Source of the DNA: Eubacteriales bacterium
Lineage (GTDB): Bacteria; Bacillota; Clostridia; Oscillospirales; CAG-382
DNA length: 64,000 bases
NCBI GenBank assembly: GCA_045540015.1
Contig: JAZQGP010000013.1
Span: 128,251-192,250, forward strand
Direction of reading: 5' to 3'
The translations under genes and the position numbers were made by a program. This document shows positions 1 through 64,000 of this stretch, piece by piece. A model generated the notes under the pieces. It had not been told where the DNA came from, made no database searches, and saw nothing but the letters and a program-made list of their open reading frames with translations. The first letter of the stretch is position 1. Every line of letters begins with the position of its first letter.

Positions 1-140
1 TTAACAGTAACGTCGTGAGAAACGGCGGTGATGCTCGAGCTTATGGTACTTTTGGAGGCATCCTTTTTTGCCGAACGGTATTTGGACTTTGTTTGCTGAA
101 TGTTCTGCATATTTTTAAGGTTTTTGGTTTCTGTCGGCAT
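1..140 (-). CDS. hypothetical protein, N-terminal part (gene runs off left edge)
   Basis: Minus-strand ATG (cat at 138-140) is preceded by AAGGAGG (149-155 on the plus strand). The frame stays open to the window edge (MPTETKNLKNMQNIQQTKSKYRS...). No recognisable family. Confidence 0.3.
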   Translation of the reverse strand, partial: MPTETKNLKNMQNIQQTKSKYRSAKKDASKSTISSSITAVSHDVTV

Positions 141-303
141 GAAATCCGCCTCCTTTCATAAATGATATAATATATATTATCATTATACAGTAAATAATTA
201 AAGTTGTAAATATGAATTTTACAAATTTATCTTGCATTTTACATTAATTAATGCTATAATCTGTATAAAATGTAATAATTTCACGGAAGAAGGAGTTTTT
301 TGG

Positions 304-1026
304 TTGAGCGAATATATAAACGAGAACGCTGACAGCTTCAACGAAGAACCGCCGAAAAAGGGGTTTACAATCGGAAAGCTTATCAAATGGGTGTTTTTGC
401 TGCTGATTATTACGGTGTATGTAATTCTTGCGGCAAGATGTGTTCAGACGAGTGACCATAAAATAGTTAAAGAGGTTCTTGTAAACGATAAATTCCTTGA
501 GGCTTATGAAAGTGCACCCGAAGAGTTCACCGTTGAAAAATACGGAATAGAAAAATCCTGGGCAGACATCAGAGAAGGAAGACTTCTGGAATTCAACAAC
601 TTATATTATGTGCCGATGGCATCCCAGATGCAGATTTCGGTGAAATTCAACATGGATCTTGCGCAGTGCGAATACGATGAGGAAATACCGTTCAGATTCC
701 GCCTGCGCGATGAGAACGGAACCGAGTATACTGACTATTGGTACAGGTTTGCGGAAAAAATGGGTTACGGGTATGTAAGAATTTGTTTTGAGGACATAAG
801 ACTCAAAAAGTCCGAAGCAGAAATCGCAGCCGAGGAAACAGGAGAGGAAGAAAATTCCGGCAGCAATATCGGTTTTTACGGAATTGACAAGAACAGAAAA
901 AAATACACGCTATGCGTTGATATGGTAAATGCTGACGGTTCTTACAGCGAGATTTGCTCTGTAAGAATATACGGCGGCTCTGCCGTATCAAAAGAAATTG
1001 GTTTTAAACCGGAAAAGACAAAATAA
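304..1026 (+). CDS. hypothetical membrane-anchored protein
   Basis: Track ORF 232-1026. TTG at 304 lies 7 nt after GAAGGAG, which is more plausible than the track start. One N-terminal TM helix (WVFLLLIITVYVILAA). No family recognised. Confidence 0.45.
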   Translation: MSEYINENADSFNEEPPKKGFTIGKLIKWVFLLLIITVYVILAARCVQTSDHKIVKEVLVNDKFLEAYESAPEEFTVEKYGIEKSWADIREGRLLEFNNLYYVPMASQMQISVKFNMDLAQCEYDEEIPFRFRLRDENGTEYTDYWYRFAEKMGYGYVRICFEDIRLKKSEAEIAAEETGEEENSGSNIGFYGIDKNRKKYTLCVDMVNADGSYSEICSVRIYGGSAVSKEIGFKPEKTK

Positions 1027-1047
1027 TTCTTCACGAGAGGGAAAACG

Positions 1048-2061
1048 ATGAAAAAAGTAACCATGGCGGATATAGCTAAGAAAACAGGCTATTCCATTAA
1101 TACAGTTTCACATGCACTCAAAGGCAAAACCGATATTTCAAAGCCAACACGCGAGCTTATAAAAAAGACCGCCGACGAGCTCGGATATATTGGAAATTCC
1201 TCTGCAAGCTATCTTCGAAGCGGAAAGAGCAAAAGTGTTGCTCTTATATTCGGAGATATTTCAAATCCGCATTTTTCGGTTATGGTTAAGGAAGCAGAGG
1301 GAAAACTCAGAGAATACGGCTATACCGCGTTTGTTCTCAACACGGATGAGGATGAGGGCAGAGAAAAGGAAGCAATCCTGCTTTCTTTAAGCAAAAATGT
1401 TGACGGTATCATTATTTGCCCCTGCCAGAAGTCGAGAGATAACATTGAATTTATGAAGAAAACCGAGGTTCCGTATGTTCTTGTCGGCAGACGCTTTGAC
1501 GGCGAAAACGACGACTATGTTGTATGTGATGACAGAAACGGTGGATTTCTTGCGGCACAGCAGCTTATTTCCGAAGGTCATGAAAAAATACTGTTTCTCA
1601 ACGGCGACGAATATATTTCCAGTGCGAAGGAAAGACTTGAGGGAGCCAAAGAGGCTGTTAAAAAGTCAGGCCTCAAGGCGGATTGCCTTTGCGTTGAAAG
1701 TGTGCCTGCGGTTACCTTCTCGGATACCAAGCATATGAAAGAGCTGCTTGTTAAAAATGCAGACTGTACAGGCATTATTGCATTCAGCGACCTTGTTGCA
1801 ATGCAGGTTTGCTATGCGGCAGGTCTTGCAGGAAAAAGCGTTCCCGAGGATCTGAGCATTATAGGCTTTGACAATATTGTGTCAAAGTTCTGCCTGCCCG
1901 TGCATCTTTCGTCCGTAACTTCATCAAAAACAAAAATGTCCCTTGAGGCAGTTGATATACTTATGGGAAAAATCGAGGATGAAACCGCATCAGGAAGACA
2001 GGTTGTGCTTCCGACACAAATCATTTTACGTGAAACCACAAAAACATCCGGCAAGCAATGA
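1048..2061 (+). CDS. LacI family transcriptional regulator
   Basis: N-terminal HTH (TMADIAKKTGYSINTVSHALKG) followed by a periplasmic-binding-fold sugar-sensor domain of typical LacI/PurR length (337 aa). Confidence 0.9.
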   Translation: MKKVTMADIAKKTGYSINTVSHALKGKTDISKPTRELIKKTADELGYIGNSSASYLRSGKSKSVALIFGDISNPHFSVMVKEAEGKLREYGYTAFVLNTDEDEGREKEAILLSLSKNVDGIIICPCQKSRDNIEFMKKTEVPYVLVGRRFDGENDDYVVCDDRNGGFLAAQQLISEGHEKILFLNGDEYISSAKERLEGAKEAVKKSGLKADCLCVESVPAVTFSDTKHMKELLVKNADCTGIIAFSDLVAMQVCYAAGLAGKSVPEDLSIIGFDNIVSKFCLPVHLSSVTSSKTKMSLEAVDILMGKIEDETASGRQVVLPTQIILRETTKTSGKQ

Positions 2062-2093
2062 TAAAAATACTTTAAAAAGTTACAAGGTGGGTC

Positions 2094-2122
2094 TTGACAA
2101 CCTGCCTTGTTTGTGATAAAAT
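2094..2122 (+). promoter_or_regulatory. sigma-70-type promoter of GRE operon 1
   Basis: TTGACA (2094-2099), 17-nt spacer, extended -10 TGATAAAAT (2114-2122). Confidence 0.55.
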
Positions 2123-2123
2123 G

Positions 2124-2139
2124 TCATTAACGATAATGA
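2124..2139. promoter_or_regulatory. candidate LacI-family operator (imperfect palindrome)
   Basis: TCATTAACGATAATGA pairs at 7 of 8 palindromic positions around a central CG. It lies immediately downstream of the -10 box and next to the LacI gene. Confidence 0.4.
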
Positions 2140-2161
2140 GCATTAACATGAGGTGATAGAT

Positions 2162-4132
2162 ATGTTTGAGAAGCTTTACGACTATGTATTAAACAAAGAA
2201 CATCATAAATTCCGCAAAAAAGCGGAAATCAAGTTTGATGAAAAGCTCTCCGATATTGAGCGTATGACATTGCGCTTTGAGGCACTTTGCAAGGCAGAAG
2301 AGCCTGTTATACTTGAGGGCGAGCAGATTTGCTTTATCAGAACAGTTGAAAACATTCCCGACATTTATACACAGGAGGAATGGGCAAAGATCAAAAGCGC
2401 GCATTTTATCCATGAGCTCGGCTATCTTTCCAACCTTTCTCCTGACTATGAAAATGTTATAAGCACGGGTCTTCTTGCTCTCAGAGAAACTGCCGATAAA
2501 TACGGCAAACGTGCAATTGATGCAATAATAGACCTTTCCGACAGATATAAGTCAAAAGCAGAAGAAATTGGAAGAAACGATATTGTAAAGGTGCTCGAAA
2601 GGGTTCCGAGATACGGAGCTCAGTCTTTCAGAGAGGCATTGCAGTTCTTTCGCATTGTTCACTATTCTCTTTGGCTTGAGGGTAACTACCACAACACGGT
2701 AGGAAGATTTGACAAATATATGTACCCATATCTCAAGGCTGATATGGAAAAGGGACTTTATACGAGAGAAAGCGCATACGAGCTTCTTTGCGACTTTTTC
2801 CTTTCCTTCAACAAAGACAGCGATTTGTATGTCGGCGTTCAGCAGGGTGATAACGGTCAGAGTATGGTGCTTGGCGGTATTGACGAAAACGGAAACGAGG
2901 TTTTCAATCTTCTTTCCGAGCTTTGTCTTGAGGCAAGCGGAAGACTTCTGATGATTGACCCGAAAATAAACCTCAGAGTAGGCAAGAATACGCCCATTGA
3001 GGTTTATAATAAGGCAAGCGAGCTTACAAAGGCAGGGCTTGGCTTCCCGCAGTATTCAAATGATGATGTTGTAATAGACGCGCTTGTGAAAATGGGCTAT
3101 GACAGAAAGGACGCGAGCGACTATGTTGTTGCTGCATGCTGGGAGTTTATAATCCCAAAAGTCGGTGCGGATATTGCAAACATCGGAGCGCTTTCTTTCC
3201 CGAAGGTTGTTGATGTGTGCCTGCACCGTGACCTTGAAAGCTGCAGTACATACGAGGAATTTTTCACTTGCATAAAAAATGAGATAAAAGCTCAGTGCGA
3301 TGCAATATGCAAGGGTATAAACAACCTTTATTTTGTTCCGTCTCCCTTTATGAATATCTGCATGAAGAGCGGCATTTATAGCGGCGGAAAATACAACAAT
3401 TTCGGTATTCATGGTACCGGTGTTGCAACGGCAACAGACTCGCTGTTTGCTATCAAGGAGCATGTTTTCGGTAGTGGAAAGGTTACAAAGAAACAGATTA
3501 TTGATGCTGTTGACAGCGACTTTGCAAATGATGCCGACCTTCTTGCGCTTTTAAGAAATGAAACAGGCAAGATGGGCTGCGACATAGACGAGGTTGACGA
3601 GATAAGCGTTATGCTTCTTGATATGTTTAGTGAGGCTCTTCGCGGAAAGACTAACTGCAGAGGCGGAATTTACAGAGCAGGTACGGGCAGTGCGATGTTC
3701 TACCTTTGGCACGCTGATGAGCTTGGTGCTTCTCCCGACGGCAGAAGAAAAGGAGAACCCTTTGGCACAAACTTCTCTCCCAGTCTTTTTGCAGATATTA
3801 AAGGACCTTTCTCTGTTATAAAGTCCTTTACCAAACAGCATTTTGTAAACTGCATGAACGGCGGTCCGTTGACGCTTGAATTTCACGGTGCTATGTTCTC
3901 TGATCCTGAGAGTGTCGGAAAGGTTGCAATGCTTGTCAAGAGCTTTATTGACATGGGCGGTCATCAGATGCAGCTCAATGCCGTAAATCTCGAAAAAATG
4001 AAGGACGCAAAGGCTCATCCCGAAAAGCACAGACAGCTTGTTGTTCGTATATGGGGCTGGAGCGCATACTTTGTTGAGCTTGATGAGCGTTATCAGAACC
4101 ATGTAATGCGCCGTCAGGAATACAGCATATGA
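2162..4132 (+). CDS. glycyl radical enzyme, short PFL2/dehydratase-like family (~656 aa)
   Basis: C-terminal glycyl-radical motif variant VVRIWGWSAYFVEL. Cys loop VVAACWEF, with Glu two residues after the Cys. The next gene is a GRE activase whose start overlaps this stop. ATG at 2162 follows GAGGTG; the track start 2153 is GTG. Confidence 0.8.
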   Translation: MFEKLYDYVLNKEHHKFRKKAEIKFDEKLSDIERMTLRFEALCKAEEPVILEGEQICFIRTVENIPDIYTQEEWAKIKSAHFIHELGYLSNLSPDYENVISTGLLALRETADKYGKRAIDAIIDLSDRYKSKAEEIGRNDIVKVLERVPRYGAQSFREALQFFRIVHYSLWLEGNYHNTVGRFDKYMYPYLKADMEKGLYTRESAYELLCDFFLSFNKDSDLYVGVQQGDNGQSMVLGGIDENGNEVFNLLSELCLEASGRLLMIDPKINLRVGKNTPIEVYNKASELTKAGLGFPQYSNDDVVIDALVKMGYDRKDASDYVVAACWEFIIPKVGADIANIGALSFPKVVDVCLHRDLESCSTYEEFFTCIKNEIKAQCDAICKGINNLYFVPSPFMNICMKSGIYSGGKYNNFGIHGTGVATATDSLFAIKEHVFGSGKVTKKQIIDAVDSDFANDADLLALLRNETGKMGCDIDEVDEISVMLLDMFSEALRGKTNCRGGIYRAGTGSAMFYLWHADELGASPDGRRKGEPFGTNFSPSLFADIKGPFSVIKSFTKQHFVNCMNGGPLTLEFHGAMFSDPESVGKVAMLVKSFIDMGGHQMQLNAVNLEKMKDAKAHPEKHRQLVVRIWGWSAYFVELDERYQNHVMRRQEYSI

Positions 4133-4899
4133 CAAAGGGTGTTGTTTTTGATATAAAAGAGTGCTCGGTTCATGACGGACCGGGTGTGAGAACAACGGTG
4201 TTTCTTAAAGGGTGTCCTTTAAGATGCGTGTGGTGTCACAATCCCGAAGGGTTAAGCACGAAAAAACAGCTCATGTACAAGGAAAACAAGTGCGTTCACT
4301 GTAATAACTGTAAAAAGGCGTGTGACCACGAGGAATGTAAAGCTTTCGGCAGATGCATACACGCGTGTCCCTGCGGATGTCTTTCGGTAAGCGGAAGAGA
4401 GTATACGGCTGAGGAACTGTGTGCCGAGGTGCTTCGCAATAAGAGCTTTTTCGATTCGACCGGCGGCGGTGTTACCTTTTCAGGCGGCGAGCCGCTTATG
4501 CAAAGTGAATTTTTACTTGAGTGTCTTGATGGGCTTTCGTGCACCGGAAGAGCTGTTGAAACGTGCGGGTATGCTGAAAGTGCCGTGTTTAAAAGCGTTA
4601 TTGAAAAGTGTGATTATGTTATCATGGATATAAAGCTTGCAGACGGTGATTTGCATAAAAAGTATACAGGAGTTCCGAACGGGCAGATACTTGAAAACGC
4701 AAGGCTTCTCCAAAGCAGCGGTAAAGCGCATCTGTTCAGAACACCGCTTATTCCGGGAATTACCGATACAGATGAAAATCTTTCGGCAATAGAAAGAATA
4801 ATCGGCACATCACCTTGGGAAAAACTTAAATACAATGCTCTCGCAGGAGCAAAATATGAAATGCTCGGCATGGAGTATCCGTTTGAAAAGTTGAAATAA
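4129..4899 (+). CDS. glycyl-radical enzyme activating protein (radical SAM)
   Basis: CPLRCVWCHNPE radical-SAM cluster motif. An additional ferredoxin-like Cys-rich insert (CVHCNNCKKAC...CIHACPCGC). ATGA overlap with the GRE gene. Confidence 0.9.
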   Translation: MTKGVVFDIKECSVHDGPGVRTTVFLKGCPLRCVWCHNPEGLSTKKQLMYKENKCVHCNNCKKACDHEECKAFGRCIHACPCGCLSVSGREYTAEELCAEVLRNKSFFDSTGGGVTFSGGEPLMQSEFLLECLDGLSCTGRAVETCGYAESAVFKSVIEKCDYVIMDIKLADGDLHKKYTGVPNGQILENARLLQSSGKAHLFRTPLIPGITDTDENLSAIERIIGTSPWEKLKYNALAGAKYEMLGMEYPFEKLK

Positions 4900-4943
4900 T
4901 AATGGTTTGAAAACAAATTAATGTCTTGAAAGGAAGAAGAATC

Positions 4944-6854
4944 ATGAATTTCAGTGCTGTACTTAAAACTGCGTCGGGCAAAGAACCGAAGGCGCAGGTT
5001 ACCGAGAAAAAGCTTGGCAATGGCGTAGCTGCCGTATATGTAAAGGGCAAAGCAGAAGAAAACCTTGACATGGAATTCGGTGCACGCTGTAAGATTGAGT
5101 TTGACAAGGAAGTTGAAAAATGCGTTTGTGTACACAGACACAGCGAATACTGGTGTATGCCCATTTTCAAGGATAACCCCTGCGAGATTCCGGACGAAAC
5201 CCAGGGCTTTGTTGCAAGACACACAGACGGAAGATACACGGTTATTCTTCCTGTTGTTTCTGCAATCTATAAGTGTGTACTCACTTCGATTCCCGATGCA
5301 AATGAATTTTGTGCAAGACTTTTCTCGTATGTTGAAACACTCAACGAGTGCGACGCACTTGCGTTTGTATACGGCGAGACGGATAACCCCTACAAGATGA
5401 TGAATGACTGCTTCAGAGAGGCAATCAAGGAGCTTGGTATTCCTACTAAGATGCTTGAGGAAAGAGAATATCCCGAAATGTTCGAATATCTTGGCTGGTG
5501 CAGCTGGGATGCTCTTCAGATAAGAGTAAGCGAAGAAGGACTTTTAGAAAAGTGCCGCGAATTCAAGGAAAAGAACATTCCCGTTCGCTGGGCGATTGTT
5601 GACGACATGTGGGCGGATATTCCAAAGTTCAGAAAAGAAACCTATTCAAGCAGACAGGAAATGTTCCAGCTTATGCATTCAAGTCCCATTGCGTCCTTTG
5701 AAGCGGATCCCGTGCGTTTTCCTGACGGCTTAAAGCATGCCATTACCGAAATGAAAAAGTATATGACGTGGGTTGGCATGTGGCATCCGACAACGGGATA
5801 TTGGTACGGTGTTGATCCCGAAAGCAAGCTTTACGAAACTTTAAAAGCAGATCTTTTCAAAACCGAAAACGGCAGATATATTCCCCGTCCCGATTATGAC
5901 GGCTTCTATAAATTCTTTGATTCCTTCCATACCTTCCTTGAGGACTGCGGTGCTGACTTTGTGAAGGTTGACAACCAGAGCATGACAAAGCGTTTTTATA
6001 AAAAGACGCATCCCGTAGGTCAGGTTGCACGTTTCCAGCACAAAGCACTTGAAGACAGCACCACAAAGCATTTCGGAAACCGCCTTATTAACTGCATGGG
6101 CTGTGCAAGCGATAACGTTTGGAATCGTCCTTCAAGTCCTGTATCACGTTGCTCCGATGACTTCCAGCCCGAAAACAGAGACTGGTTCACAAAGCACATC
6201 TTGCAGTGCTCATACATGAGCTATCTCCAGGGGCAGATTATTTCCTGCGACTGGGATATGTGGTGGACAGATGATGCACAGGGAAGCAAGAACAGTCTTC
6301 TTCGTGCAATAAGCGGCGGTCCTATCTATGTAAGTGATGAAATCGGCAGAAGCCGCAGAGAGCTTCTCATGCCTCTTTGCCTTGACGACGGTAGAATTTT
6401 AAGATGTGATAAGCCTGCAATGCCTGCTCTTGACTGCATGTTTGATGCTCCCGAGCACAGCGGACGTATATTCAAGGTTCAGAATACACTTAAAGGAAAC
6501 GGCGCGATTGCAGCCTTCAATCTCAATTCTGATAACAGTAAAGCTGTCGGTACAATAAGTCCCGATGATGTTGAGGGACTTTGCGGCGAAGAATTTGCGG
6601 TATACGAGCACTTTGCACATAAGTTCTACACGATGAAGCGTGGCGAAAAGCTTGAAGTTGAGTTTACAGACCGCGACGATTTCAGACTTTATACCTTTAC
6701 TCCCATTGTAAACGGCTTTGCGGCAATCGGAAGAACTGATAAGTTTATGTCGCCTCTTACAATAAAGAAGGTTGACGGCAAGAAGATTGAGCTTTATGAG
6801 AGCGGAATGTGCGCTTACTATGACAACGGAAAGTTTGTTGAAGAAGAAATTTGA
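4944..6854 (+). CDS. GH36-clan raffinose synthase/Sip1-like glycoside hydrolase
   Basis: Motifs YLGWCSWDAL, WAIVDDMWAD and FVKVDNQS are typical of the raffinose-synthase/seed-imbibition (alpha-galactosidase-related) family. ATG at 4944 follows GAAAGGAAG. Confidence 0.75.
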   Translation: MNFSAVLKTASGKEPKAQVTEKKLGNGVAAVYVKGKAEENLDMEFGARCKIEFDKEVEKCVCVHRHSEYWCMPIFKDNPCEIPDETQGFVARHTDGRYTVILPVVSAIYKCVLTSIPDANEFCARLFSYVETLNECDALAFVYGETDNPYKMMNDCFREAIKELGIPTKMLEEREYPEMFEYLGWCSWDALQIRVSEEGLLEKCREFKEKNIPVRWAIVDDMWADIPKFRKETYSSRQEMFQLMHSSPIASFEADPVRFPDGLKHAITEMKKYMTWVGMWHPTTGYWYGVDPESKLYETLKADLFKTENGRYIPRPDYDGFYKFFDSFHTFLEDCGADFVKVDNQSMTKRFYKKTHPVGQVARFQHKALEDSTTKHFGNRLINCMGCASDNVWNRPSSPVSRCSDDFQPENRDWFTKHILQCSYMSYLQGQIISCDWDMWWTDDAQGSKNSLLRAISGGPIYVSDEIGRSRRELLMPLCLDDGRILRCDKPAMPALDCMFDAPEHSGRIFKVQNTLKGNGAIAAFNLNSDNSKAVGTISPDDVEGLCGEEFAVYEHFAHKFYTMKRGEKLEVEFTDRDDFRLYTFTPIVNGFAAIGRTDKFMSPLTIKKVDGKKIELYESGMCAYYDNGKFVEEEI

Positions 6855-6882
6855 ATAAAAAATTCCCATTGTTAAAAATGAG

Positions 6883-6916
6883 CCTCCCTGAATAAACTAT
6901 ATCAGGGAGGTTTTAT
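6883..6916 (+). terminator. intrinsic terminator after GH36 gene
   Basis: 9-bp stem CCTCCCTGA / TCAGGGAGG followed by TTTT. Confidence 0.55.
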
Positions 6917-6917
6917 T

Positions 6918-7118
6918 ATGGATATCAATGAAAGAAAAACGGCATCACCAAAGACGGACGACGAATACGAGGAACTTATAAACAGACTTGACAAAGTGGC
7001 GTCCATGAACGAGTATACAGGCTCAAGAGTAACACCCGAGCCGGAATATGACAGTACAGAGCATTTTTTTAACAAAGAAAAGGCGAGAAGCGAAAGCAGA
7101 AAACGTCAGAATAAATGA
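6918..7118 (+). CDS. small hypothetical acidic/basic protein (66 aa)
   Basis: ORF with GGGAGG 8 nt upstream. No family recognised. Confidence 0.4.
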   Translation: MDINERKTASPKTDDEYEELINRLDKVASMNEYTGSRVTPEPEYDSTEHFFNKEKARSESRKRQNK

Positions 7119-7239
7119 AATAATAACACGGCGGGACATGCAAAAATCCAAAAAAGGGAATTGTTTAAAAGAAGCGTGTAACAAACCGATTTGCAGGTGC
7201 ATATACTGACATTGAAAAGTAAAATGCGGAGGTGTCGTG

Positions 7240-7386
7240 ATGAGAAGAAGCTGTGCTGTTATAGGAATGTGCCTGCTTTCGGCGGGAGTGGGAATACTTA
7301 TATCTGTTTTTCTTCCTCCTGTGATACTGGTGTGCATTGAAGCACTGCTTCTTATTCTTGCGGGGCTCCTTTGCTTTAAGTGCTGA
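7240..7386 (+). CDS. small hydrophobic protein (48 aa), below ORF-track cutoff
   Basis: ATG at 7240 lies 6 nt after GGAGGTG. Product MRRSCAVIGMCLLSAGVGILISVFLPPVILVCIEALLLILAGLLCFKC has two predicted TM segments. Confidence 0.35.
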   Translation: MRRSCAVIGMCLLSAGVGILISVFLPPVILVCIEALLLILAGLLCFKC

Positions 7387-7565
7387 AAACAAAAGGTGAA
7401 CTTGGAGGTAATGCCATGAAAATTGTACTTATTAAGCCGCCGAAGGTGCTCGTTCCCATTCTCAAGCTGTTTTTAAAGTAAAAAACAATTGAATAAAAAG
7501 CATAAACTCCTTTTCACGCTCATACATATTGAGTAAATGAGTAAAAGTGCAAAGGAGTTGTTTTT

Positions 7566-9116
7566 ATGGAAAAATACAGGCTTCCCGAAAGGAATATTAT
7601 GTTTTCGGACAGAAACGAGTTTGATACTGTGGTTGCGGTGACGCTTGATGAATACTGCCCGAATGCAGTGAAAATTGTCAGGTGCGATATGTATCCGGTT
7701 CTTTCGGAATGGCGTCTTACGGAAAACGGCATAGAATACTCGGGAAAAAACATTTTTCGTGTTGTGTATGTTTCAGACTACAACGATAGTCTCAGAAGCG
7801 TGAATTTTGAGCAGGATTTTGGCGGAGTAATGAAAGTGAATGCGACCTTGCCGGAGGATGATCTCAAAGTTTGTATGTCTGCCGGAAGCGTTCAGTCCTC
7901 GGCAAAAATAATGTCGGCAAGACAGCTCGAGCTTAAAGGCAGAGTGATGCTTTCCGGAACAGTTACGAGCAGTGGCGAATTGCAGCTGTACGGCAATGAG
8001 GCACAGAACAACGAAAACATATGTATGCTTGAAGAGACACTTGAAATGTGCGAAAGAATAAGGATAGACTGCGAAAAAGCGCAGGTTGAGAGCGATATTT
8101 CTTTGTCCCAGGGAGAAATGAGTGTAGGTGAAATGCTGTATACCGAAATAAATCCTTTTGTTACGCAAAGCGAATGCTTCGACGGAAGAATGTCGGTTTC
8201 GGGAAATGTTTATGCAAGATTTGTGTATGTTCCCGAAAGACAGTCTGATTCACCCGACACACAGGAAAGTGAGCCTGTATGCGTAACGAGAACCATTCCG
8301 TTTGAAACTCAGATATATAACGACGGCATAAATGAAAACGGATATGCTTTTGTTAAAGCCGTGCCGATATATGCAAAAACAGGGGTTTCCTATGATCCGT
8401 ACGGTGAAAACAGGGTACTGTCGCTTTCGGCGGATATGGAAATTTCGGGGTTCGTCTATGAATGCGAAAAGGCGTGTGTATGTACAGATGTTTTCGGAGT
8501 AGGAAAAAAGGTAAATGCCGAGATTGTTCCCGTGACATTTGAAAGAATATCCGACACCGTTAAGGAGAACATATATATTTCCGAAAAGCTTCATGCGGAC
8601 CCGAGGAGCTTTTCAAGCATTACCGACTGCGGAATGAATGTGAGAGTTACGGGCACAGAGGTTTCTGAGGGTAAAATGTACGCAGCTTTGCGTGCGGACG
8701 TTAATCTTTTCGGTGTAGGAGAAAACGGCGGTGCAAGCTTTGTACAGAGTGGATTTAACATGAAGACCCCTGTCGACACCTCGGTAAATCCAAGTGAGAT
8801 TAAGGCAGATATGCTGGTGCAGGTAAAGGATGTGCAGTGCGAAATAAAGAGCGGAGAGCTGATCGTGCAGGCAAACGCAGAGCTTTGCGGTGTACTGACA
8901 GAAAAAACAACGGCAAATGCCGTTGGTGCTGTAAGCATATCGGAGGATGAAAACGACTGTGAAAAGGGGCAGATAATTGTGTATTATCCCGAAGACTCGG
9001 ACACTGTCTGGAGCATTGCAAAGAGTTATTCTGTTAATCCCGAGATGCTGAAAATGGCAAATGGAATTGATGGTGACAGCCTTTTGGGAGTAAAGACAGT
9101 GCTTATAACAAAGTAA
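7566..9116 (+). CDS. DUF3794-like repeat protein with C-terminal LysM domain (SafA-like, spore/cell-wall associated)
   Basis: C-terminal LysM (IIVYYPEDSDTVWSIAKSYSVNPEMLKMANGI...). The N-terminal region has the architecture seen in clostridial DUF3794/LysM proteins. Confidence 0.7.
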   Translation: MEKYRLPERNIMFSDRNEFDTVVAVTLDEYCPNAVKIVRCDMYPVLSEWRLTENGIEYSGKNIFRVVYVSDYNDSLRSVNFEQDFGGVMKVNATLPEDDLKVCMSAGSVQSSAKIMSARQLELKGRVMLSGTVTSSGELQLYGNEAQNNENICMLEETLEMCERIRIDCEKAQVESDISLSQGEMSVGEMLYTEINPFVTQSECFDGRMSVSGNVYARFVYVPERQSDSPDTQESEPVCVTRTIPFETQIYNDGINENGYAFVKAVPIYAKTGVSYDPYGENRVLSLSADMEISGFVYECEKACVCTDVFGVGKKVNAEIVPVTFERISDTVKENIYISEKLHADPRSFSSITDCGMNVRVTGTEVSEGKMYAALRADVNLFGVGENGGASFVQSGFNMKTPVDTSVNPSEIKADMLVQVKDVQCEIKSGELIVQANAELCGVLTEKTTANAVGAVSISEDENDCEKGQIIVYYPEDSDTVWSIAKSYSVNPEMLKMANGIDGDSLLGVKTVLITK

Positions 9117-9121
9117 AAAAC

Positions 9122-9146
9122 AAAGGGGCGACATGCCCCTTTTTCT
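9122..9146. terminator. bidirectional intrinsic terminator
   Basis: AAGGGGC-gacat-GCCCCTT hairpin flanked by A-run and T-run, between convergent genes. Confidence 0.6.
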
Positions 9147-9484
9147 TATAAAAATATTGATATCCTTATAAGTACCATGTAAAGCACTGTTGAAAGCCCT
9201 ATGCTTAAAAGCGTGTTGCCCTTTATGTAGTGAAGCACCGCTGCAAAGGCAACTGCAATAAGCTCGGGAATTCCGTGTGAACCTGATAGAAAATGCACGT
9301 TTCTCAGACAGAATATCACAAGTGTTGCAATAACTGTCGGCGGAAGAACTTTTCCGAGATAATCGACTATTGCAGGAACCTTTCTCTTTCCTCCAAACAG
9401 CAGGAACGGTATAAACCTCGTAAGAGCCGTGGACAAAGCACAAACCGCGATTATGGCAACGGCGTAGATTGTTTTGTCATTCAT
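9146..9484 (-). CDS. azlD: branched-chain amino acid transporter AzlD-like
   Basis: 112-aa polytopic membrane protein that overlaps the stop of the AzlC-like gene, the typical azlCD pair. Confidence 0.75.
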   Translation of the reverse strand: MNDKTIYAVAIIAVCALSTALTRFIPFLLFGGKRKVPAIVDYLGKVLPPTVIATLVIFCLRNVHFLSGSHGIPELIAVAFAAVLHYIKGNTLLSIGLSTVLYMVLIRISIFL

Positions 9485-10182
9485 ACCGATGCCTCCTTTT
9501 TGCCGTTTCGTTCATCGGGATGTATGCTTTTAGTGAATATCAGAATTGCCGACGAAAGCAGGAGCGACGGGAAAATAAAGTTGTCAGGACCGAGAAGTAT
9601 GAGGAAAAGTGCCGAGGAAACAAGCCCTGTAATTGCAGGAAGCTTGTACGAATTTTTCTTCCACTGTTCGACAAACAACACAACAAACAGCGCTGTCATT
9701 GAAAAGTCAACACCCGTAAAGTCAAACGGGAGATTGCTGAGAAGTGAGCCTATGCATGAGCCGATTATCCAGTATGAGTGGTCAAAAAGCGAGATAAACA
9801 GCATTGACAGCGGATGTGCGTTGTCGTGCTCGGTAAAGCATAAAACCGAATATGTCTCGTCCGTAAGCTCGTAAATCGGAATAAACTTTTTCTTTCCGAG
9901 TATCTGGAAGCGCGTTATAAATGAAAGCCCGTAGAATATGTGTCTGCTGTTGAGAAGAATTGTCATGACACATGCAGTTGCAAGGGTGGTGTTTCCTGCT
10001 GCGAGAAAATCGCACATGAGAAACTGACCGGAGCCTGCGTATATGAAAAGGCTGGAGAAAAACGCCCACGGCAGACCGTAGCCTGCTTGCCTGAGCAATA
10101 TCCCGAAGGCGGTGCCTAAAAACAGGTAGCCGAACAAAACGGGAAGCGAGCGCTTGAATGAATAGAGAATTATCTTTTTCAA
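9481..10182 (-). CDS. azlC: AzlC family branched-chain amino acid permease component
   Basis: FKRSLPVLFGYLFLGTAFGIL...GSGQF motif region. TTG start at 10182 lies 8 nt after AAGGAG; the track start 10224 is probably too long. Confidence 0.8.
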   Translation of the reverse strand: MKKIILYSFKRSLPVLFGYLFLGTAFGILLRQAGYGLPWAFFSSLFIYAGSGQFLMCDFLAAGNTTLATACVMTILLNSRHIFYGLSFITRFQILGKKKFIPIYELTDETYSVLCFTEHDNAHPLSMLFISLFDHSYWIIGSCIGSLLSNLPFDFTGVDFSMTALFVVLFVEQWKKNSYKLPAITGLVSSALFLILLGPDNFIFPSLLLSSAILIFTKSIHPDERNGKKEASV

Positions 10183-10306
10183 GGTGAAATCTCCTTGTGT
10201 TTTTAGATTTACACAGTATATCACCGAAATCTCCGGTTATCAAGCTGTATTTGTAAATAAAAGTCGCATTTTGCATATAATACGGCAAAAAAGAGATAAA
10301 AAGGTA

Positions 10307-10335
10307 TTGCAAAAAAAGCAAAATAGAGGTATAAT
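10307..10335 (+). promoter_or_regulatory. sigma-70-type promoter
   Basis: TTGCAA, 17-nt spacer, TATAAT (10330-10335), upstream of the DUF1858 gene. Confidence 0.5.
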
Positions 10336-10370
10336 ATATCTGTAAATTTATTATTTCTCGGAGGTTTATC

Positions 10371-10574
10371 ATGAAAGAAGTAACAAAAGACACAATCGTA
10401 GGCGATATTCTTGACATCGCGCCCGAAGCAGCACCGCTTTTCCTTGAAATCGGAATGCACTGCCTTGGCTGTCCTTCGGCAAGAGGCGAGAGCATAGAAA
10501 TGGCATGCGCTGTTCACGGAGTTGACGCAGACGAGCTTGTTGAAAAAATCAACACACTGCTTTCATCAAAGTAA
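10371..10574 (+). CDS. DUF1858 domain protein (hybrid-cluster-protein-associated redox disulfide domain)
   Basis: 67 aa with MHCLGCPSARGESIE, a CxxC motif typical of DUF1858. Confidence 0.75.
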   Translation: MKEVTKDTIVGDILDIAPEAAPLFLEIGMHCLGCPSARGESIEMACAVHGVDADELVEKINTLLSSK

Positions 10575-11317
10575 TGAGCCGAGAGTTGACTAAACCGTCA
10601 GTCCGGCTGAGTGCGGCGGCTGAAATGGCCGCCGCTGCTTTGTCATGTGAGAAAAAAACGAAACGAGCACTTGATGTCGGTTGCGACCATGCAAAGCTTG
10701 CGGTATACCTTGTGCAGTCGGGACTGTTTTCTCATGTGACAGCGTCTGATGTTGCCGACGGTCCGTGTGAAAAGGCAAGACAAACGGTCAGAGAAAGAAC
10801 GCTGAGAGGCGAAAGCCTTGAAAAATATATAACCGTTGTAAAGTCAGACGGACTTTGCGGATTTGAAAACGAGCATTTCGACTGTGTTTTCATACTCGGA
10901 ATGGGCGGTGAGCTTATTTCGGATATACTCGAAAAGGGCAGCTTTACAAGATGTGATGAAAATCGCGAGAAAATACGGTATATCCTTCAGCCCATGACAA
11001 GCGAGGACAAGCTTCGCGAATATCTGTATGAAAACGGCTACAGAATAGATGACGAAACAATGGTTTGTGACAAATCAAGAGTGTACGCAATTCTTTCGGT
11101 GTGCTTTGACGGCGAAAAACGAAAGGGTACTAAGAGCGAATATCTTCTCGGAAAAGCAAATATAGAAAGACGTACAGAGCTGTTTGAAAGACAGCTTGAC
11201 AGGAGAATACGCATTACAAAAAAAGCTCTTGAAGAAAGACTGCAGAACGGACTTGAGTCTGATGAGCTTAAAACACTTCTTGATGAGCTTCTCGTGATAA
11301 AGGAGAATAAAAAATGA
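10574..11317 (+). CDS. trmK: tRNA (adenine22-N1)-methyltransferase TrmK-like
   Basis: LDVGCDHAKLAVYLV SAM-binding start. Followed by a Nif3-family gene, the conserved trmK(yqfN)-yqfO pair. Confidence 0.75.
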   Translation: MSRELTKPSVRLSAAAEMAAAALSCEKKTKRALDVGCDHAKLAVYLVQSGLFSHVTASDVADGPCEKARQTVRERTLRGESLEKYITVVKSDGLCGFENEHFDCVFILGMGGELISDILEKGSFTRCDENREKIRYILQPMTSEDKLREYLYENGYRIDDETMVCDKSRVYAILSVCFDGEKRKGTKSEYLLGKANIERRTELFERQLDRRIRITKKALEERLQNGLESDELKTLLDELLVIKENKK

Positions 11318-12081
11318 TAACTGTAAGAGATATAGACATTCTTTTGAGCGCGGTTGCTCCGAAGTCGCTTTCGGAGGAATGGGACAACGACGGCGTTATG
11401 CTGTGTTCGAGCCTTGATAAACCTGTGAAAAAAGTGCTTTGTGCACTTGAAGTTACAGAGGAAGTGTCAAAATATGCCTGTGAAAACGGCTTTGACCTTG
11501 TTGTAACGCATCACCCGCTTATCTTCAGGAAAATTTCAAGGCTTGACGAGAGCAATTTTAACGTGTTTGCACCGTTTTTTGAAAAAGGAATAAGCGTGCT
11601 TTCGTATCATACAAGGCTTGACAGCGCAGAGGGCGGAGTGAACGACTGTCTTGCAGGGCTTATCGGCATGACGGATGTTTGCGGCTTTGGCGGAGAATCC
11701 GGCTGCATAGCCAGAATCGGAAAAGTGATACCAATGTCATTTGAGCAGTTTGGGGAGCATCTGCTGTCAAAGCTTAATTGTGTAAATATCCGTGCGTGTG
11801 ATTCAGGAAAAGCAATAGAAAAGGTTGCGCTTGTCGGCGGCTCGGGTAAAGACTATATTTTTGATGCTGTGCGTTCGGGTGCAGATGCTTTTGTTACAAG
11901 CGAAATACCGCACCACATGTACGAAGAAGCAAAAAAGCTCGGCATAAGTCTTTTTGACTGCGGTCACTATTACACAGAAAACTGCATTGCCGAAAAGCTC
12001 GCAGAGCTTATAAAAGAAAAGTATCCCGAACTTTGCGTACAGGCTTTTGATGTACAAAGTCCGTATGTTTGTATACAGTAA
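11314..12081 (+). CDS. Nif3-like dinuclear metal center protein
   Basis: VVTHHPLIF motif, ~255 aa, coupled to trmK by an ATGA overlap. Confidence 0.85.
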   Translation: MITVRDIDILLSAVAPKSLSEEWDNDGVMLCSSLDKPVKKVLCALEVTEEVSKYACENGFDLVVTHHPLIFRKISRLDESNFNVFAPFFEKGISVLSYHTRLDSAEGGVNDCLAGLIGMTDVCGFGGESGCIARIGKVIPMSFEQFGEHLLSKLNCVNIRACDSGKAIEKVALVGGSGKDYIFDAVRSGADAFVTSEIPHHMYEEAKKLGISLFDCGHYYTENCIAEKLAELIKEKYPELCVQAFDVQSPYVCIQ

Positions 12082-12096
12082 ACCGGAGGAATAAAA

Positions 12097-13908: not shown

Positions 13909-13912
13909 TAAT

Positions 13913-61300: not shown

Positions 61301-61305
61301 CGGCT

Positions 61306-62061: not shown

Positions 62062-62080
62062 ATTTTGGAGGAATTTAATT

Positions 62081-63175: not shown

Positions 63176-63176
63176 T

Positions 63177-63950: not shown

Positions 63951-64000
63951 AAATAAAATAATTGTTGACAAATACATTAACGTTATGGTATGATAAAATT

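What the first reader, a model, noticed from the sequence alone, without database searches (positions are those of the whole stretch)
1048..6854. Operon pairing an unusually short glycyl radical enzyme with a GH36/raffinose-synthase-like hydrolase under a LacI regulator
The GRE is ~656 aa, whereas characterised GREs (PFL, glycerol/propanediol dehydratases, CutC, HypD, IslA) are ~750-900 aa. It nevertheless keeps a Cys loop (AACWE, with Glu at Cys+2 as in 1,2-eliminases) and a C-terminal glycine motif in a variant form (RIWGWSAYF instead of RVxG[FY]SA). Its activase carries the extra ferredoxin-like insert. Co-transcription with an alpha-galactosidase-clan enzyme suggests a pathway: a glycoside is cleaved, and the released polyol or deoxy-sugar-type aglycone is then processed by radical elimination. 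A promoter and a LacI-type palindrome sit upstream (2094-2139). The substrate cannot be read from the sequence.
Basis: partly seen in the sequence, partly recalled or inferred. Interest (0 to 1): 0.65.

Follow-up and report, generated by a model that had tools for sequence, protein, structure and literature searches.

The report
Uncharacterised short sugar-linked glycyl radical enzyme
A LacI-controlled operon in an uncultured gut Clostridium encodes a compact glycyl radical enzyme from a widespread clade that nobody has characterised, plus its activase and an alpha-galactosidase-type hydrolase, and gene neighbourhoods across many species suggest a still-unknown oxygen-free radical reaction on a simple plant sugar.

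Summary
A LacI repressor, a 656-aa glycyl radical enzyme (GRE), its activase and a GH36 Sip1-type hydrolase form one unit, with a strong promoter, a conserved operator and a terminator.

The short length is a family trait: more than 120 homologue clusters are 634-686 aa. The predicted fold still matches full-length GREs (TM 0.80 over the query). The losses are N-terminal helices.

The enzyme fails every curated GRE equivalog cut-off. It sits in a deep clade marked by a Cys loop A-A-C-W-E, a Gly motif R-[IV]-W-G-W-S, and Asn in place of the beta1 histidine.

GRE plus activase is the constant core (72 of 83 loci). The GH36 is the commonest partner (26 of 83) but is neither obligatory nor dedicated.

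Clade members at 45-55% identity keep the same conserved-residue signature. They sit next to monosaccharide transporters (17 of 41 lineages), araD (4 of 41), and in one locus araA-kinase-araD. GH51 and GH43 genes also recur.

Most likely it performs CxE-type radical C-O cleavage on a free, neutral arabinose- or galactose-type sugar. Glycerol is unlikely. The substrate remains unproven.

No publication on this clade was found. A cultured carrier exists (Ructibacterium gallinarum DSM 107454). Interest is moderate to high.

The parts
1048..2061 (+). LacI-family repressor (337 aa)
   Evidence: Pfam LacI HTH (E 1e-10) plus Peripla_BP_1/3/4. It is below all NCBIfam equivalog cut-offs; the best hit is RbsR at 199 bits against 382. 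The best PDB relatives are CcpA-type regulators. A LacI gene sits in the same position in L015, L016, L020, L025, L026, L080, L166 and L170.
2094..2122 (+). Sigma-70-type promoter: TTGACA, 17-nt spacer, TAAAAT, with an extended -10 TG
   Evidence: It matches 11 of 12 consensus positions and is the best + strand site in 900-7600. TTGACA and a -10 box are conserved at the same place in the orthologous LacI-linked loci.
2124..2139 (.). LacI-type operator: 16-bp palindrome TCATTAACGATAATGA with a central CG
   Evidence: Inverted repeat I3, 6-nt arms at 100% complementarity. The consensus ACATTAACG(A/T)TAATGT lies directly after the -10 box in 9 of 9 LacI-linked loci, and is duplicated in L044 and L055.
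2162..4132 (+). Short glycyl radical enzyme (656 aa), ACWE / RIWGWS clade
   Evidence: Pfam PFL-like plus Gly_radical. It is below all NCBIfam GRE cut-offs. The AlphaFold2 model has pTM 0.87, and Foldseek gives TM 0.80 over the query to GD, PflD, PD and CutC. Homologues are 634-686 aa.
3131..3145 (+). Cys loop A-A-C326-W-E328 (thiyl radical Cys and Cys+2 Glu)
   Evidence: Direct translation. It aligns to GD C433/E435 and to PflD GCVE. It is invariant in the clade.
4046..4072 (+). Glycyl radical motif R-I-W-G632-W-S-A-Y-F
   Evidence: Direct translation. It aligns to RVAGYSAQF of GD. R-[IV]-W-G-W-S is the clade signature.
2420..2449 (+). Beta1 segment GYLSN91LSPDY, where the conserved beta1 His of canonical GREs is Asn
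   Evidence: Multiple alignment with E. coli PflD (GQGH158IIIDY) and YbiW. Asn is found throughout the ACWE clades and His in canonical GREs.
4129..4899 (+). GRE-activating radical SAM enzyme (256 aa) with a compact Cys-rich insert
   Evidence: TIGR02494 scores 263 bits against a cut-off of 174. The CX3CX2C Cys are at 29/33/36, and the insert Cys at 55, 58, 61, 65, 70, 76 and 80 are conserved in 71-73 of 75 homologues. The gene is adjacent to the GRE in 72 of 83 loci.
4944..6854 (+). Cytoplasmic GH36 glycosidase of the Sip1 / alkaline alpha-galactosidase / raffinose-synthase type (636 aa; the ORF opens at TTG 4926)
   Evidence: Pfam PF05691 E 3e-63. The best PDB hit is Arabidopsis AtRS6 (7exf), E 5e-53. 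The Asp of KVDNQ (nt 5964-5978) aligns with the Asp that is mutated to Ala in 7exg, which I take to be the nucleophile. RCSDDF (nt 6147-6164) aligns with RASDDF. No N-terminal signal-like segment is visible by eye; no predictor was run.
6883..6917 (+). Intrinsic terminator CCTCCCTGA-N10-TCAGGGAGG-TTTTATT
   Evidence: Read from the sequence. The scanner missed it because the loop is 10 nt.

Best explanation
This is a LacI-repressed operon. Its core is a functional but uncharacterised glycyl radical enzyme (GRE) with its own activase, co-transcribed with a cytoplasmic GH36 (Sip1-type) glycosidase.

Proposed working:
1. An inducer sugar releases LacI from the operator that overlaps the transcription start.
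2. The activase, a radical SAM enzyme with a compact ferredoxin-like insert, installs a radical on Gly632.
3. The radical passes to Cys326.
4. The thiyl radical abstracts H from a carbinol carbon of a neutral, monosaccharide-sized sugar of the arabinose/galactose type. That sugar is either freed inside the cell by the GH36 (or by GH51/GH43 in other species) or imported directly (MFS or CUT2 ABC transporters in other lineages).
5. Glu328 deprotonates the hydroxyl, and the ketyl radical expels a neighbouring C-O substituent.
6. If the ring oxygen leaves, as in PflD/YbiW, the product is a ketose, for example L-ribulose or D-tagatose. If a hydroxyl leaves, as in diol dehydratases, the product is a deoxy-keto sugar.
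7. H-atom return gives a keto sugar that kinases, aldolases, reductases or AraD encoded elsewhere take over.

Shown: gene content, motifs, fold, operator, clade placement and neighbourhood statistics. Inferred: the substrate class, the bond cleaved and the product.
For: A functional GRE:
- Cys326, Glu328 and Gly632 are invariant.
- The Gly_radical domain is matched over its full length.
- An activase is adjacent in 72 of 83 loci.
- The model has pTM 0.87 and TM 0.80 over the query to GD, PflD, PD and CutC.

Not a known family:
- Every NCBIfam equivalog is far below its cut-off: HypD 271 of 1100, PflD 259 of 1109, CutC 208 of 1050, PFL 64 of 994.
- It is 25-28% identical to YbiW and PflD.
- It forms a separate clade in a neighbour-joining tree.
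- The 2026 review of all characterised GREs lists nothing like it.

Sugar link:
- The GH36 is in the same operon in 26 of 83 loci. GH51 is in 5, GH43 and GH78 in 3 each, and DUF4867 (a ketose-associated cupin) in 4, once between the GRE and its activase.

Monosaccharide and arabinose/galactose link:
- The 45-position conserved-residue signature is nearly unchanged between the window enzyme and members at 45-55% identity.
- Among 41 such lineages, CUT2 ABC transporters occur in 11, MFS sugar porters in 6, araD in 4 and galM in 3.
- In L155 the GRE, activase and an MglB-like ABC transporter lie divergent from araA (718 bits against a cut-off of 622), a kinase and araD.
- Some regulators have the GntR-HTH plus LacI-domain architecture of AraR.

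A keto product:
- AKR or SDR genes (L008, L082, L150, L161), FGGY kinase, and DeoC/LacD or class II aldolases (L069, L012) lie in or next to the operon.

Regulation.
Against: - No substrate was tested, and neighbourhoods in these CAZyme-dense genomes are heterogeneous.
- araA/araD adjacency is seen only in distant clade members (45-55% identity), never in the 83 loci of the window's own subclade.
- The transporter binding proteins are closest to RbsB, AlsB and MglB, all below their cut-offs. No AraF model appeared among their hits.
- The beta1 His that serves as general acid in glycerol dehydratase, and that is kept in PflD and YbiW, is Asn here. The leaving-group chemistry may therefore differ.
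- Ordinary metal-dependent isomerases already convert arabinose and galactose, so the need for a radical enzyme is unexplained.
- AlphaFold2 gives pLDDT below 50 for the Gly loop (624-640) and for 510-541.
- Residues were mapped by alignment, not seen in a pocket.
Confidence: 0.55

Rival explanations
1. One reading: the GH36 cleaves a galactosyl-polyol such as galactosyl-glycerol or galactinol, and the GRE is a glycerol/diol-dehydratase-like enzyme that dehydrates the released polyol aglycone to an aldehyde or ketone.
For: - Glycerol dehydratase 1r8w is the best sequence hit (E 1e-75) and the best structural hit.
- The CxE motif is present.
- The GH36 is of the Sip1/galactinol type.
- GDSL lipase-like genes occur in 6 operons, which could fit galactolipid deacylation.
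- AKR, SDR or Zn-ADH neighbours in a few loci could reduce an aldehyde.
Against: - The glycerol-contacting residues of GD (positions recalled from memory) are replaced: H164 to N, S282 to N, D447 to N, Y640 to G.
- TIGR01774 scores 299 bits against a cut-off of 678.
- No 1,3-propanediol dehydrogenase, CoA-acylating aldehyde dehydrogenase, microcompartment shell gene or GlpF appeared among the annotated neighbours in 163 loci.
- Transporters linked to the clade are monosaccharide types.
- The GH36 is absent from two thirds of the loci.
Confidence: 0.12
2. A non-phosphorylated version of the PflD/YbiW 'anhydroglycolysis' isomerases. In this reading the GRE opens the ether ring of a free anhydro-sugar, or cleaves an O-methyl sugar or cyclitol ether. 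These are substrates that truly need radical chemistry.
For: - PflD (8yjo, 8id0) is the second-best sequence and fold match.
- That class uses the same CxE motif on sugar rings.
- HAD Cof-type phosphatase genes lie next to the GRE in 3-5 loci, as ybiV lies next to ybiW in E. coli.
- Monosaccharide transporters are linked to the clade.
- Ether cleavage would explain why a radical enzyme is needed.
Against: - It is 25-28% identical to YbiW and PflD, and NF007437 scores 259 bits against a cut-off of 1109.
- There is no PTS, kinase or FSA-type aldolase as a conserved partner.
- The beta1 His kept by PflD and YbiW is Asn here.
- Nothing in the neighbourhoods points to a source of anhydro- or methyl-sugars.
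Confidence: 0.1
3. A radical hexuronate decarboxylase that feeds the arabinose pathway, for example D-galacturonate to L-arabinose plus CO2. This would be a new use of GRE decarboxylase chemistry.
For: - The clade sits in arabinose-type contexts without replacing araA. In L155, araA, a kinase and araD lie divergent from the GRE, activase and transporter.
- Arg505, and Lys410 in most members, are conserved basic residues. Arg505 lies on the strand that carries GD Y640, and both could bind a carboxylate.
- From my recollection of HPAD, GRE decarboxylases also carry a Glu at Cys+2 (not checked here).
Against: - The linked transporters are sugar-porter and CUT2 types, typical of neutral sugars.
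- No pectinase or uronate isomerase genes recur next to the GRE.
- The orientation of R505 was not verified.
- Purely speculative chemistry.
Confidence: 0.06
4. It is simply what databases call it, a pyruvate formate-lyase, or else a decayed non-catalytic GRE remnant whose short length reflects degeneration.
For: - Source names for homologues are 'pyruvate formate-lyase' or 'formate C-acetyltransferase'.
- Some paralogues inside the clade really have lost the Cys and the Gly.
Against: - PFL needs two adjacent Cys (own knowledge of the family), and this enzyme has a single Cys in A-A-C-W-E.
- TIGR01255 scores 64 bits against a cut-off of 994.
- Cys, Glu and Gly are invariant, and about 250 residues are invariant over 42 homologues at 68-100% identity.
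- A dedicated activase is present in 72 of 83 loci.
- The regulated promoter and operator are conserved.
- The fold is retained.
Confidence: 0.02

Closest known systems
B12-independent glycerol dehydratase (Clostridium butyricum DhaB1, PDB 1R8W) and GRE 1,2-propanediol dehydratase (5I2G)
   Same: They are the best sequence hit (E 1e-75) and fold hit (TM 0.80 over the query). They share the PFL-like barrel, the Cys loop with Glu at Cys+2, the C-terminal glycyl radical domain, and an activase with a Cys-rich insert.
   Different: - The enzyme is about 130 aa shorter through N-terminal deletions.
- It is about 23% identical in the Foldseek alignment to GD and PD.
- The residues I recall as glycerol-binding in GD are replaced (H164N, S282N, D447N, Y640G).
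- Trp flanks both the Cys and the Gly.
- There are no aldehyde-handling or microcompartment genes.
- The context is sugar genes rather than glycerol genes.
GRE sugar isomerases PflD and YbiW (1,5-anhydromannitol-6-P and 1,5-anhydroglucitol-6-P to 1-deoxyfructose-6-P; PDB 8YJO, 8ID0, 8ID7)
   Same: According to the 2026 review, these are the only GREs known to act on sugar rings. They share the CxE chemistry. They are the second-best sequence and fold matches. A HAD Cof phosphatase neighbour occurs in some loci, as ybiV does next to ybiW.
   Different: - Identity is 25-28%.
- PflD and YbiW are 765-810 aa and keep the beta1 His and the GCVE/RVAGYS motifs.
- They are fed by a PTS and act on 6-phosphates.
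- The short clade is linked to ABC or MFS uptake and to cytoplasmic glycosidases, with no kinase or PTS as a fixed partner.
Plant alkaline alpha-galactosidase / raffinose synthase family (GH36; Arabidopsis AtRS6, PDB 7EXF); the archaeal GalS-type alpha-galactosidases are a further comparison recalled from memory
   Same: The operon's third enzyme matches Pfam Raffinose_syn. It aligns over residues 103-533 at E 5e-53, with the KxD and RxxxD catalytic motifs and DDxW and DWDM conserved.
   Different: - It is a bacterial cytoplasmic protein of 636 aa, against 749 aa for AtRS6.
- Its specificity is unknown. Alpha-galactoside and beta-L-arabinopyranoside are both open.
- It is not dedicated to the GRE: 3 of 4 sampled homologue loci lack it.
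LacI/GalR-family sugar operon repressors such as CcpA and RbsR
   Same: It has the N-terminal LacI HTH plus a periplasmic-binding-protein fold. Its 16-bp palindromic operator has a central CG and overlaps the promoter.
   Different: It is below all equivalog cut-offs, its effector is unknown, and the operator consensus ACATTAACGWTAATGT was found only for this GRE regulon here.

Membership tests
Glycyl radical enzyme superfamily (PFL-like branch) | PFL-like barrel domain plus C-terminal glycine radical domain | tested here: met
   Pfam PF02901 E 4e-79 and PF01228 E 6e-18, covering profile positions 4-106 of 106. Foldseek probability is 1.0 and TM 0.80 over the query to GD, PflD, PD and CutC.
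Glycyl radical enzyme superfamily (PFL-like branch) | Conserved radical Gly in an RVxG[FYW] fingerprint and a catalytic Cys on the Cys loop | tested here: met
   RIWG632WS and AAC326WE. Both align to GD and PflD and are invariant in homologues. The variant residues are Trp at Gly-1, Gly+1 and Cys+1.
Glycyl radical enzyme superfamily (PFL-like branch) | Cognate radical SAM activase encoded nearby | tested here: met
   The activase overlaps the GRE stop codon. TIGR02494 scores 263 bits against a cut-off of 174. It is adjacent in 72 of 83 loci.
Glycyl radical enzyme superfamily (PFL-like branch) | Gly loop and Cys loop fingers meeting in the barrel centre | tested here: inconclusive
   The AlphaFold2 model is confident for most of the barrel, but pLDDT is below 50 for 624-640 (the Gly loop, drawn as a helix) and for 510-541. 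Coordinates could not be inspected.
GRE 1,2-eliminase / isomerase classes (CxE GREs) | Glu two residues after the catalytic Cys | tested here: met
   C326-W-E328. The review describes the CXE motif as retained in the eliminases and isomerases it covers.
GRE 1,2-eliminase / isomerase classes (CxE GREs) | Beta1-strand His (GD H164) acting as general acid for the leaving group | tested here: not met
   This position aligns to Asn91. Asn is found throughout the ACWE clades, and His in PflD, YbiW and canonical GREs. CutC is said to carry Asp at this position (recalled from memory), so the feature is not universal.
B12-independent glycerol dehydratase | Family-level sequence score (TIGR01774 PFL2-3 subfamily cut-off) and glycerol-binding residues | tested here: not met
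   The score is 299 bits against a cut-off of 678. GD S282, D447 and Y640 align to N178, N340 and G509, and H164 to N91. Only H281 is kept, as H177. The GD residue roles are recalled from memory.
B12-independent glycerol dehydratase | Genomic association with 1,3-propanediol dehydrogenase or other glycerol genes | tested here: not met
   None was seen among the annotated neighbours in 163 loci.
PflD / YbiW anhydro-sugar-phosphate isomerases | Equivalog-level similarity (NF007437) and a PTS/aldolase context | tested here: not met
   The score is 259 bits against a cut-off of 1109. Identity to E. coli PflD is 28% and to YbiW 25%. It forms a separate clade. There are no PTS genes, unlike frwBCD-pflDC.
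Pyruvate formate-lyase (the name given by databases) | Two adjacent catalytic Cys and the TIGR01255 equivalog score | tested here: not met
   There is a single Cys in AACWE. The score is 64 bits against a cut-off of 994.
HypD, CutC, HpsG/HpfG, IAD, HPAD | NCBIfam equivalog cut-offs | tested here: not met
   Scores against cut-offs are 271 of 1100, 208 of 1050, 198-245 of 1000, 166 of 1100 and 143 of 1150.
GRE activases with a ferredoxin-like auxiliary-cluster insert | Insert after the CX3CX2C motif carrying two CX2CX2CX3C motifs (8 Cys) | tested here: inconclusive
   An insert is present. The first motif is canonical (C55, C58, C61, C65). The second is reduced to C70-x5-C76-x3-C80-P. Seven Cys are conserved in 71-73 of 75 homologues, and a His in the H-x-x-C70 stretch is kept in the members inspected. 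The number of clusters cannot be tested here.
GH36 (Sip1 / raffinose-synthase subgroup) | PF05691 domain with the catalytic nucleophile (KxD) and acid/base (RxxxD) Asp residues | tested here: met
   E 3e-63. KVD343 aligns with the Asp mutated to Ala in 7exg, and RCSDD406 aligns with RASDD.
GH36 (Sip1 / raffinose-synthase subgroup) | Alpha-galactosidase activity or specificity | not testable with these tools
   This needs an enzyme assay. Beta-L-arabinopyranosidase activity, which is also known in GH36, is not excluded. A weak NCBIfam hit of a related neighbour family (cluster c39) points to BAD_1528.
LacI/GalR repressor-operator system | LacI HTH plus sugar-binding domain, and a palindromic operator with a central CG at the regulated promoter | tested here: met
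   The operator is conserved in 9 of 9 LacI-linked orthologous loci.

The most novel reading that the evidence does not exclude
The clade is the first glycyl radical enzyme family that acts directly on a free, unphosphorylated common plant monosaccharide. Examples would be radical ring-opening of L-arabinopyranose or D-galactopyranose to the ketose, or radical dehydration to a deoxy-keto sugar. Either would define a new anaerobic route of pentose or hexose catabolism in gut Clostridia. It would be the tip of a radiation of short GREs embedded in glycan-utilisation loci: two are present in this window and three in Ructibacterium gallinarum.
Probability: 0.3. Interest if true: 0.85.

Novelty: new variant of a known kind. 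Interest (0 to 1): 0.62.

Why it matters
Glycyl radical enzymes underlie several gut-microbial reactions that affect the host, including trimethylamine, p-cresol, skatole and H2S precursors, and hydroxyproline use. Every newly assigned clade so far has revealed new chemistry.

This clade is found in at least 141 species-level genomes of ruminant, chicken, horse and human gut Clostridia, plus many metagenome lineages. It has a trimmed architecture and its own motif set, and no member has been characterised.

Its consistent placement beside glycosidases, monosaccharide transporters and arabinose genes suggests that radical chemistry takes part in mainstream plant-sugar fermentation. So far that has been seen only for the niche anhydro-sugar phosphates handled by PflD and YbiW.

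The question is directly testable for four reasons:
- The operon is small.
- The operator and repressor offer a way to find the inducer.
- Cultured carriers exist (Ructibacterium gallinarum DSM 107454, Bacterium 1xD8-48).
- The list of candidate substrates is short.

Tried and rejected
- **Truncation or artefact.** Rejected: more than 120 homologue clusters have the same length, and the 90%-identical locus L170 has the identical four-gene layout between housekeeping genes.
- **Membership in a characterised GRE family.** Rejected by the NCBIfam cut-offs, PDB identities and the tree.
- **Literature.** Eight full-text searches and the 2026 Drennan-lab review found no description of a short GRE, or of a GRE with the CWE/RVWG motifs. 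The primary PflD/YbiW paper is not in the library, so their phosphate-binding residues could not be mapped.
- **Sulfoquinovose idea.** DUF4867 is SftX of sulfoglycolysis. Dropped: DUF4867 occurs in only 4 loci, the family is broadly associated with ketose metabolism, and no sulfo-pathway genes are present.
- **Hydroxyproline from extensin glycans.** Considered because HypD is the second-best equivalog. Rejected because the transporters and regulators are sugar types and the score is 271 of 1100.
- **Unknown proteins next to GH36 homologues.** The 645-aa and 717-aa proteins in L169 and L168 were tested as possible cryptic GREs. They show no similarity.
- **Look-up of the window GRE's own contig.** Not on record.
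- **Rfam scan of 1-8000.** No riboswitch or leader.
- **ORF calling.** My longest-ORF gene caller failed on GC-rich loci such as the L121-L165 group by picking antisense ORFs. Those loci were re-read by hand or with tblastn.
- **Deeper alignment for a second structure run.** Not done, to spare the expensive search. The Gly-loop geometry therefore stays unresolved.

Full report
**1. What is in the sequence**

Four co-directional genes occupy 1048-6854.
- The first is a LacI-family regulator (Pfam LacI plus Peripla_BP).
- The second is a glycyl radical enzyme (GRE) with PFL-like (E 4e-79) and Gly_radical (E 6e-18) domains.
- The third is a GRE activase. TIGR02494 scores 263 bits against a cut-off of 174.
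- The fourth matches Pfam Raffinose_syn (E 3e-63).

The GRE most likely starts at ATG 2162, behind GAGGTG, which gives 656 aa. Its stop overlaps the activase start (ATGA, 4129-4132). The hydrolase most likely starts at ATG 4944, which gives 636 aa.

Three regulatory elements frame the unit.
- A near-consensus promoter, TTGACA-17-TAAAAT with an upstream TG, lies at 2094-2122.
- A 16-bp palindrome, TCATTAACGATAATGA, lies at 2124-2139.
- A terminator lies at 6883-6917.

No Rfam element was found.

**2. The short length is a family trait and the fold is kept**

The best 120 homologue clusters (68-100% identity) are 634-686 aa. A full scan of 1.84 billion representatives shows full-length alignments to proteins of about 640-710 aa down to roughly 32% identity. 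Canonical GREs of 750-820 aa align only from query residue about 130 onwards.

Alignment with E. coli PflD and YbiW places the losses in the N-terminal helical region. About 65 residues equivalent to PflD 75-150 are missing. Smaller gaps lie near PflD 178-200 and 222-233.

An AlphaFold2 model built on 42 sequences has pLDDT 82.9 and pTM 0.87. It matches glycerol dehydratase, PflD, propanediol dehydratase and CutC with probability 1.0. TM is 0.80 over the query and 0.66-0.70 over the targets.

The weak parts of the model are 225-232, 510-541 and the Gly loop 624-640, which has pLDDT below 50. The loop geometry is therefore not settled. The Gly_radical profile is, however, matched end to end.

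**3. It belongs to no characterised family**

All NCBIfam equivalogs are far below their cut-offs: HypD 271 of 1100, PflD 259 of 1109, CutC 208 of 1050, PFL 64 of 994 and TIGR01774 299 of 678. Identity to E. coli PflD is 28% and to YbiW 25%.

A neighbour-joining tree of 109 full-length sequences (the window enzyme, E. coli PflD and YbiW, and 106 representatives) separates four groups:
- (i) the window's clade, with A-A-C-W-E, R-[IV]-W-G-W-S, Asn at the beta1 position and lengths of 641-709 aa;
- (ii) a sister clade with ACWE, RVWGFS and Asn;
- (iii) GCWE/RVWGF forms of 720-770 aa;
- (iv) canonical GCVE/RVAGYS/His enzymes, which include PflD and YbiW.

The June 2026 review of the superfamily lists every characterised GRE. 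None is short, none carries these motifs and none is linked to glycosidases. Eight literature searches found nothing on this clade.

**4. Active-site columns**

This mapping is by alignment only. The roles of the glycerol dehydratase (GD) residues other than C433, E435 and H164 are recalled from memory.

| GD residue | Window residue |
|---|---|
| H164 (PflD H158) | N91 |
| H281-S282 | H177-N178 |
| Y339 region | invariant G-D230-N-G-Q233-S |
| C433 / E435 | C326 / E328, with W327 between |
| D447 | N340 |
| Y640 | G509, with invariant R505 four residues upstream on the same strand |

The glycerol pocket of GD is therefore not conserved. The replacements are smaller or polar, as expected for a larger polyhydroxylated ligand.

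**5. Neighbourhoods of the window's subclade**

The set is 83 loci: 79 of the 80 species-representative genomes (one gave no callable GRE ORF), 3 metagenome contigs and the window itself.

Predicted operon mates of the GRE:

| Partner | Loci (of 83) |
|---|---|
| Activase | 72 |
| GH36 Sip1-type | 26 |
| LacI | 7 |
| GDSL esterases | 6 |
| GH51 arabinofuranosidase | 5 |
| DUF4867 | 4 |
| GH43 | 3 |
| GH78 | 3 |
| GH94 | 3 |
| HAD Cof phosphatase | 3 |

An AraC-type regulator lies within five genes in 24 loci, usually upstream on the opposite strand. About 25 loci hold only the GRE and activase.

DUF4867 is a cupin of unknown function. It is usually found beside aldose-ketose isomerases and FGGY kinases (PMC11968277). 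In L033 it lies between the GRE and its activase.

A few loci add enzymes that could process a keto sugar.
- L008 and L082 carry an SDR plus an AKR.
- L012 carries a class II aldolase plus a DHDPS-family aldolase.
- L069 (Ructibacterium gallinarum DSM 107454) carries a DeoC/LacD aldolase, a Zn-ADH, an FGGY kinase and an SMP30-like protein.

In the window and in its 90%-identical relative L170, the four-gene unit is an island between housekeeping genes.

Seen from the GH36 side, only 1 of 4 sampled homologue loci carries the GRE. That locus, L166, has the same LacI-GRE-activase-GH36 order. The GH36 is therefore a frequent partner but not a dedicated one.

Its catalytic Asp residues align with those of Arabidopsis AtRS6.

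**6. Distant members of the same clade**

Eighty metagenome loci at 44-55% identity fall into 41 lineages at 85% identity. Neighbours by lineage:

| Neighbour | Lineages (of 41) |
|---|---|
| CUT2 monosaccharide ABC transporter | 11 |
| LacI-type or GntR-HTH/LacI-domain (AraR-architecture) regulator | 7 |
| MFS sugar porter (XylE-like) | 6 |
| araD | 4 |
| galM | 3 |
| GH51 | 2 |

One araD, in L136, scores 391 bits on TIGR00760 against a cut-off of 389. The AraR-type architecture rests.

In L155 the GRE, its activase and an MglB-like ABC transporter lie divergent from araA, an FGGY kinase and araD. That araA scores 718 bits against a cut-off of 622.

Forty-five conserved positions were compared, including all the mapped active-site columns. 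They are nearly unchanged between the window enzyme and these distant members. The sister clade differs at most of them. This supports treating the clade as isofunctional and carrying the context over to the window enzyme.

**7. Interpretation**

The data support a functional CxE-type radical enzyme whose substrate is monosaccharide-sized, probably neutral, and tied to arabinose/galactose-type plant glycans. The substrate would reach the enzyme either by cytoplasmic glycosidases (GH36 here) or by direct uptake.

Known GRE mechanisms point to carbinol H-abstraction, deprotonation by Glu328 and beta C-O scission. Loss of the ring oxygen would give a ketose. Loss of a hydroxyl would give a deoxy-keto sugar.

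Which bond breaks and which sugar is used are inferred, not shown. The His-to-Asn change and the lack of an obvious need for radical chemistry on ordinary aldoses remain unexplained.

The rival readings are a polyol dehydratase, an anhydro- or methyl-ether sugar cleaving enzyme, a uronate decarboxylase, and PFL or a decayed remnant. Each is listed with its evidence in the Rival explanations section.

**8. Regulation**

The operator consensus ACATTAACG(A/T)TAATGT sits immediately after the -10 box in all nine LacI-linked loci examined, from different species. It occurs twice in L044 and L055. This is strong comparative support for repression by the adjacent LacI.

A second, weaker copy lies inside another promoter-like site at the very end of the window, at 63974-63989.

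**9. Verdict**

This is an uncharacterised, widespread and architecturally trimmed GRE clade, which I class as a new variant of a known kind. It is worth experimental follow-up, and cultured hosts are available.

Noticed in passing
window 59291-63950: A second, unrelated short GRE is present: 669 aa, 27% identical to the first, with GCIE and RVSGFS motifs. Glycerol dehydratase 1r8w hits it at E 1e-106, aligned from GD residue 160. It is followed by an activase without the insert (61306-62061, 251 aa), a Zn-dependent alcohol dehydrogenase (62081-63175) and an SGNH/acetylxylan-esterase-like protein (63177-63950).
   Followed up: partly
window 63966-63996: A promoter-like site (TTGACA ... GATAAAAT) contains an operator-like sequence, ACATTAACGTTATGGT, which has 2 mismatches to the GRE operon operator core. 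The gene it would control lies beyond the window end. It could be a second target of the same LacI.
   Followed up: partly
window 2082-2110: An 11-nt inverted repeat (ACAAGGTGGGT / ACCTGCCTTGT, 82% complementary) flanks the -35 hexamer of the GRE promoter, just after the LacI stop codon. It could be a weak terminator for lacI or a second regulatory site.
   Followed up: no
proteins P0132, P0165, P0172, P0183, P0186, P0188 (representatives): These paralogues branch inside the window's clade at normal length (634-681 aa) but have lost the catalytic Cys, and most have lost the radical Gly. They may be non-radical pseudo-enzymes derived from the short GRE.
   Followed up: partly
L069 (Ructibacterium gallinarum DSM 107454) 23-14747: Three short GREs, only about 25% identical to one another, lie in one locus. 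One is the 65% orthologue of the window enzyme, next to its activase and a GH36 Sip1-type gene. The locus also holds a DeoC/LacD aldolase, GH43, a Zn-ADH, an FGGY kinase and an SMP30-like protein. This suggests a wider radiation of short GREs in sugar loci.
   Followed up: partly
L028, L035, L042, L048, L059: In some Acutalibacteraceae and Oscillospiraceae the short GRE and its activase sit beside a second activase gene. In four of these loci this is followed by nrdD (anaerobic ribonucleotide reductase) and a thioredoxin-reductase-like gene, so two glycyl-radical systems are clustered.
   Followed up: no
window 232-1026: A 264-aa ORF with no Pfam hit lies directly upstream of lacI. A homologue lies in the same position in L015 (same cluster, c77). 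An unannotated 240-aa gene occupies that position in L170, but its homology was not tested. It may belong to the unit.
   Followed up: no
window 7566-9116: A SipL (SPOCS domain) plus LysM sporulation protein lies downstream, followed by AzlCD-like genes. The host is therefore probably a spore-forming member of the Clostridia.
   Followed up: no
window 1858-1885 (- strand): A perfect 12 of 12 sigma-70 consensus (TTGACA-16-TATAAT) lies antisense inside the lacI coding region. It is probably chance, but it is the best match in the region.
   Followed up: no
L169 7923-9860; L168 7943-10096: In loci where the GH36 Sip1-type gene lacks the GRE, it overlaps the start of another gene: a 645-aa protein with no Pfam hit in L169, and a DUF6259 protein in L168. 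Neither is related to the GRE.
   Followed up: partly
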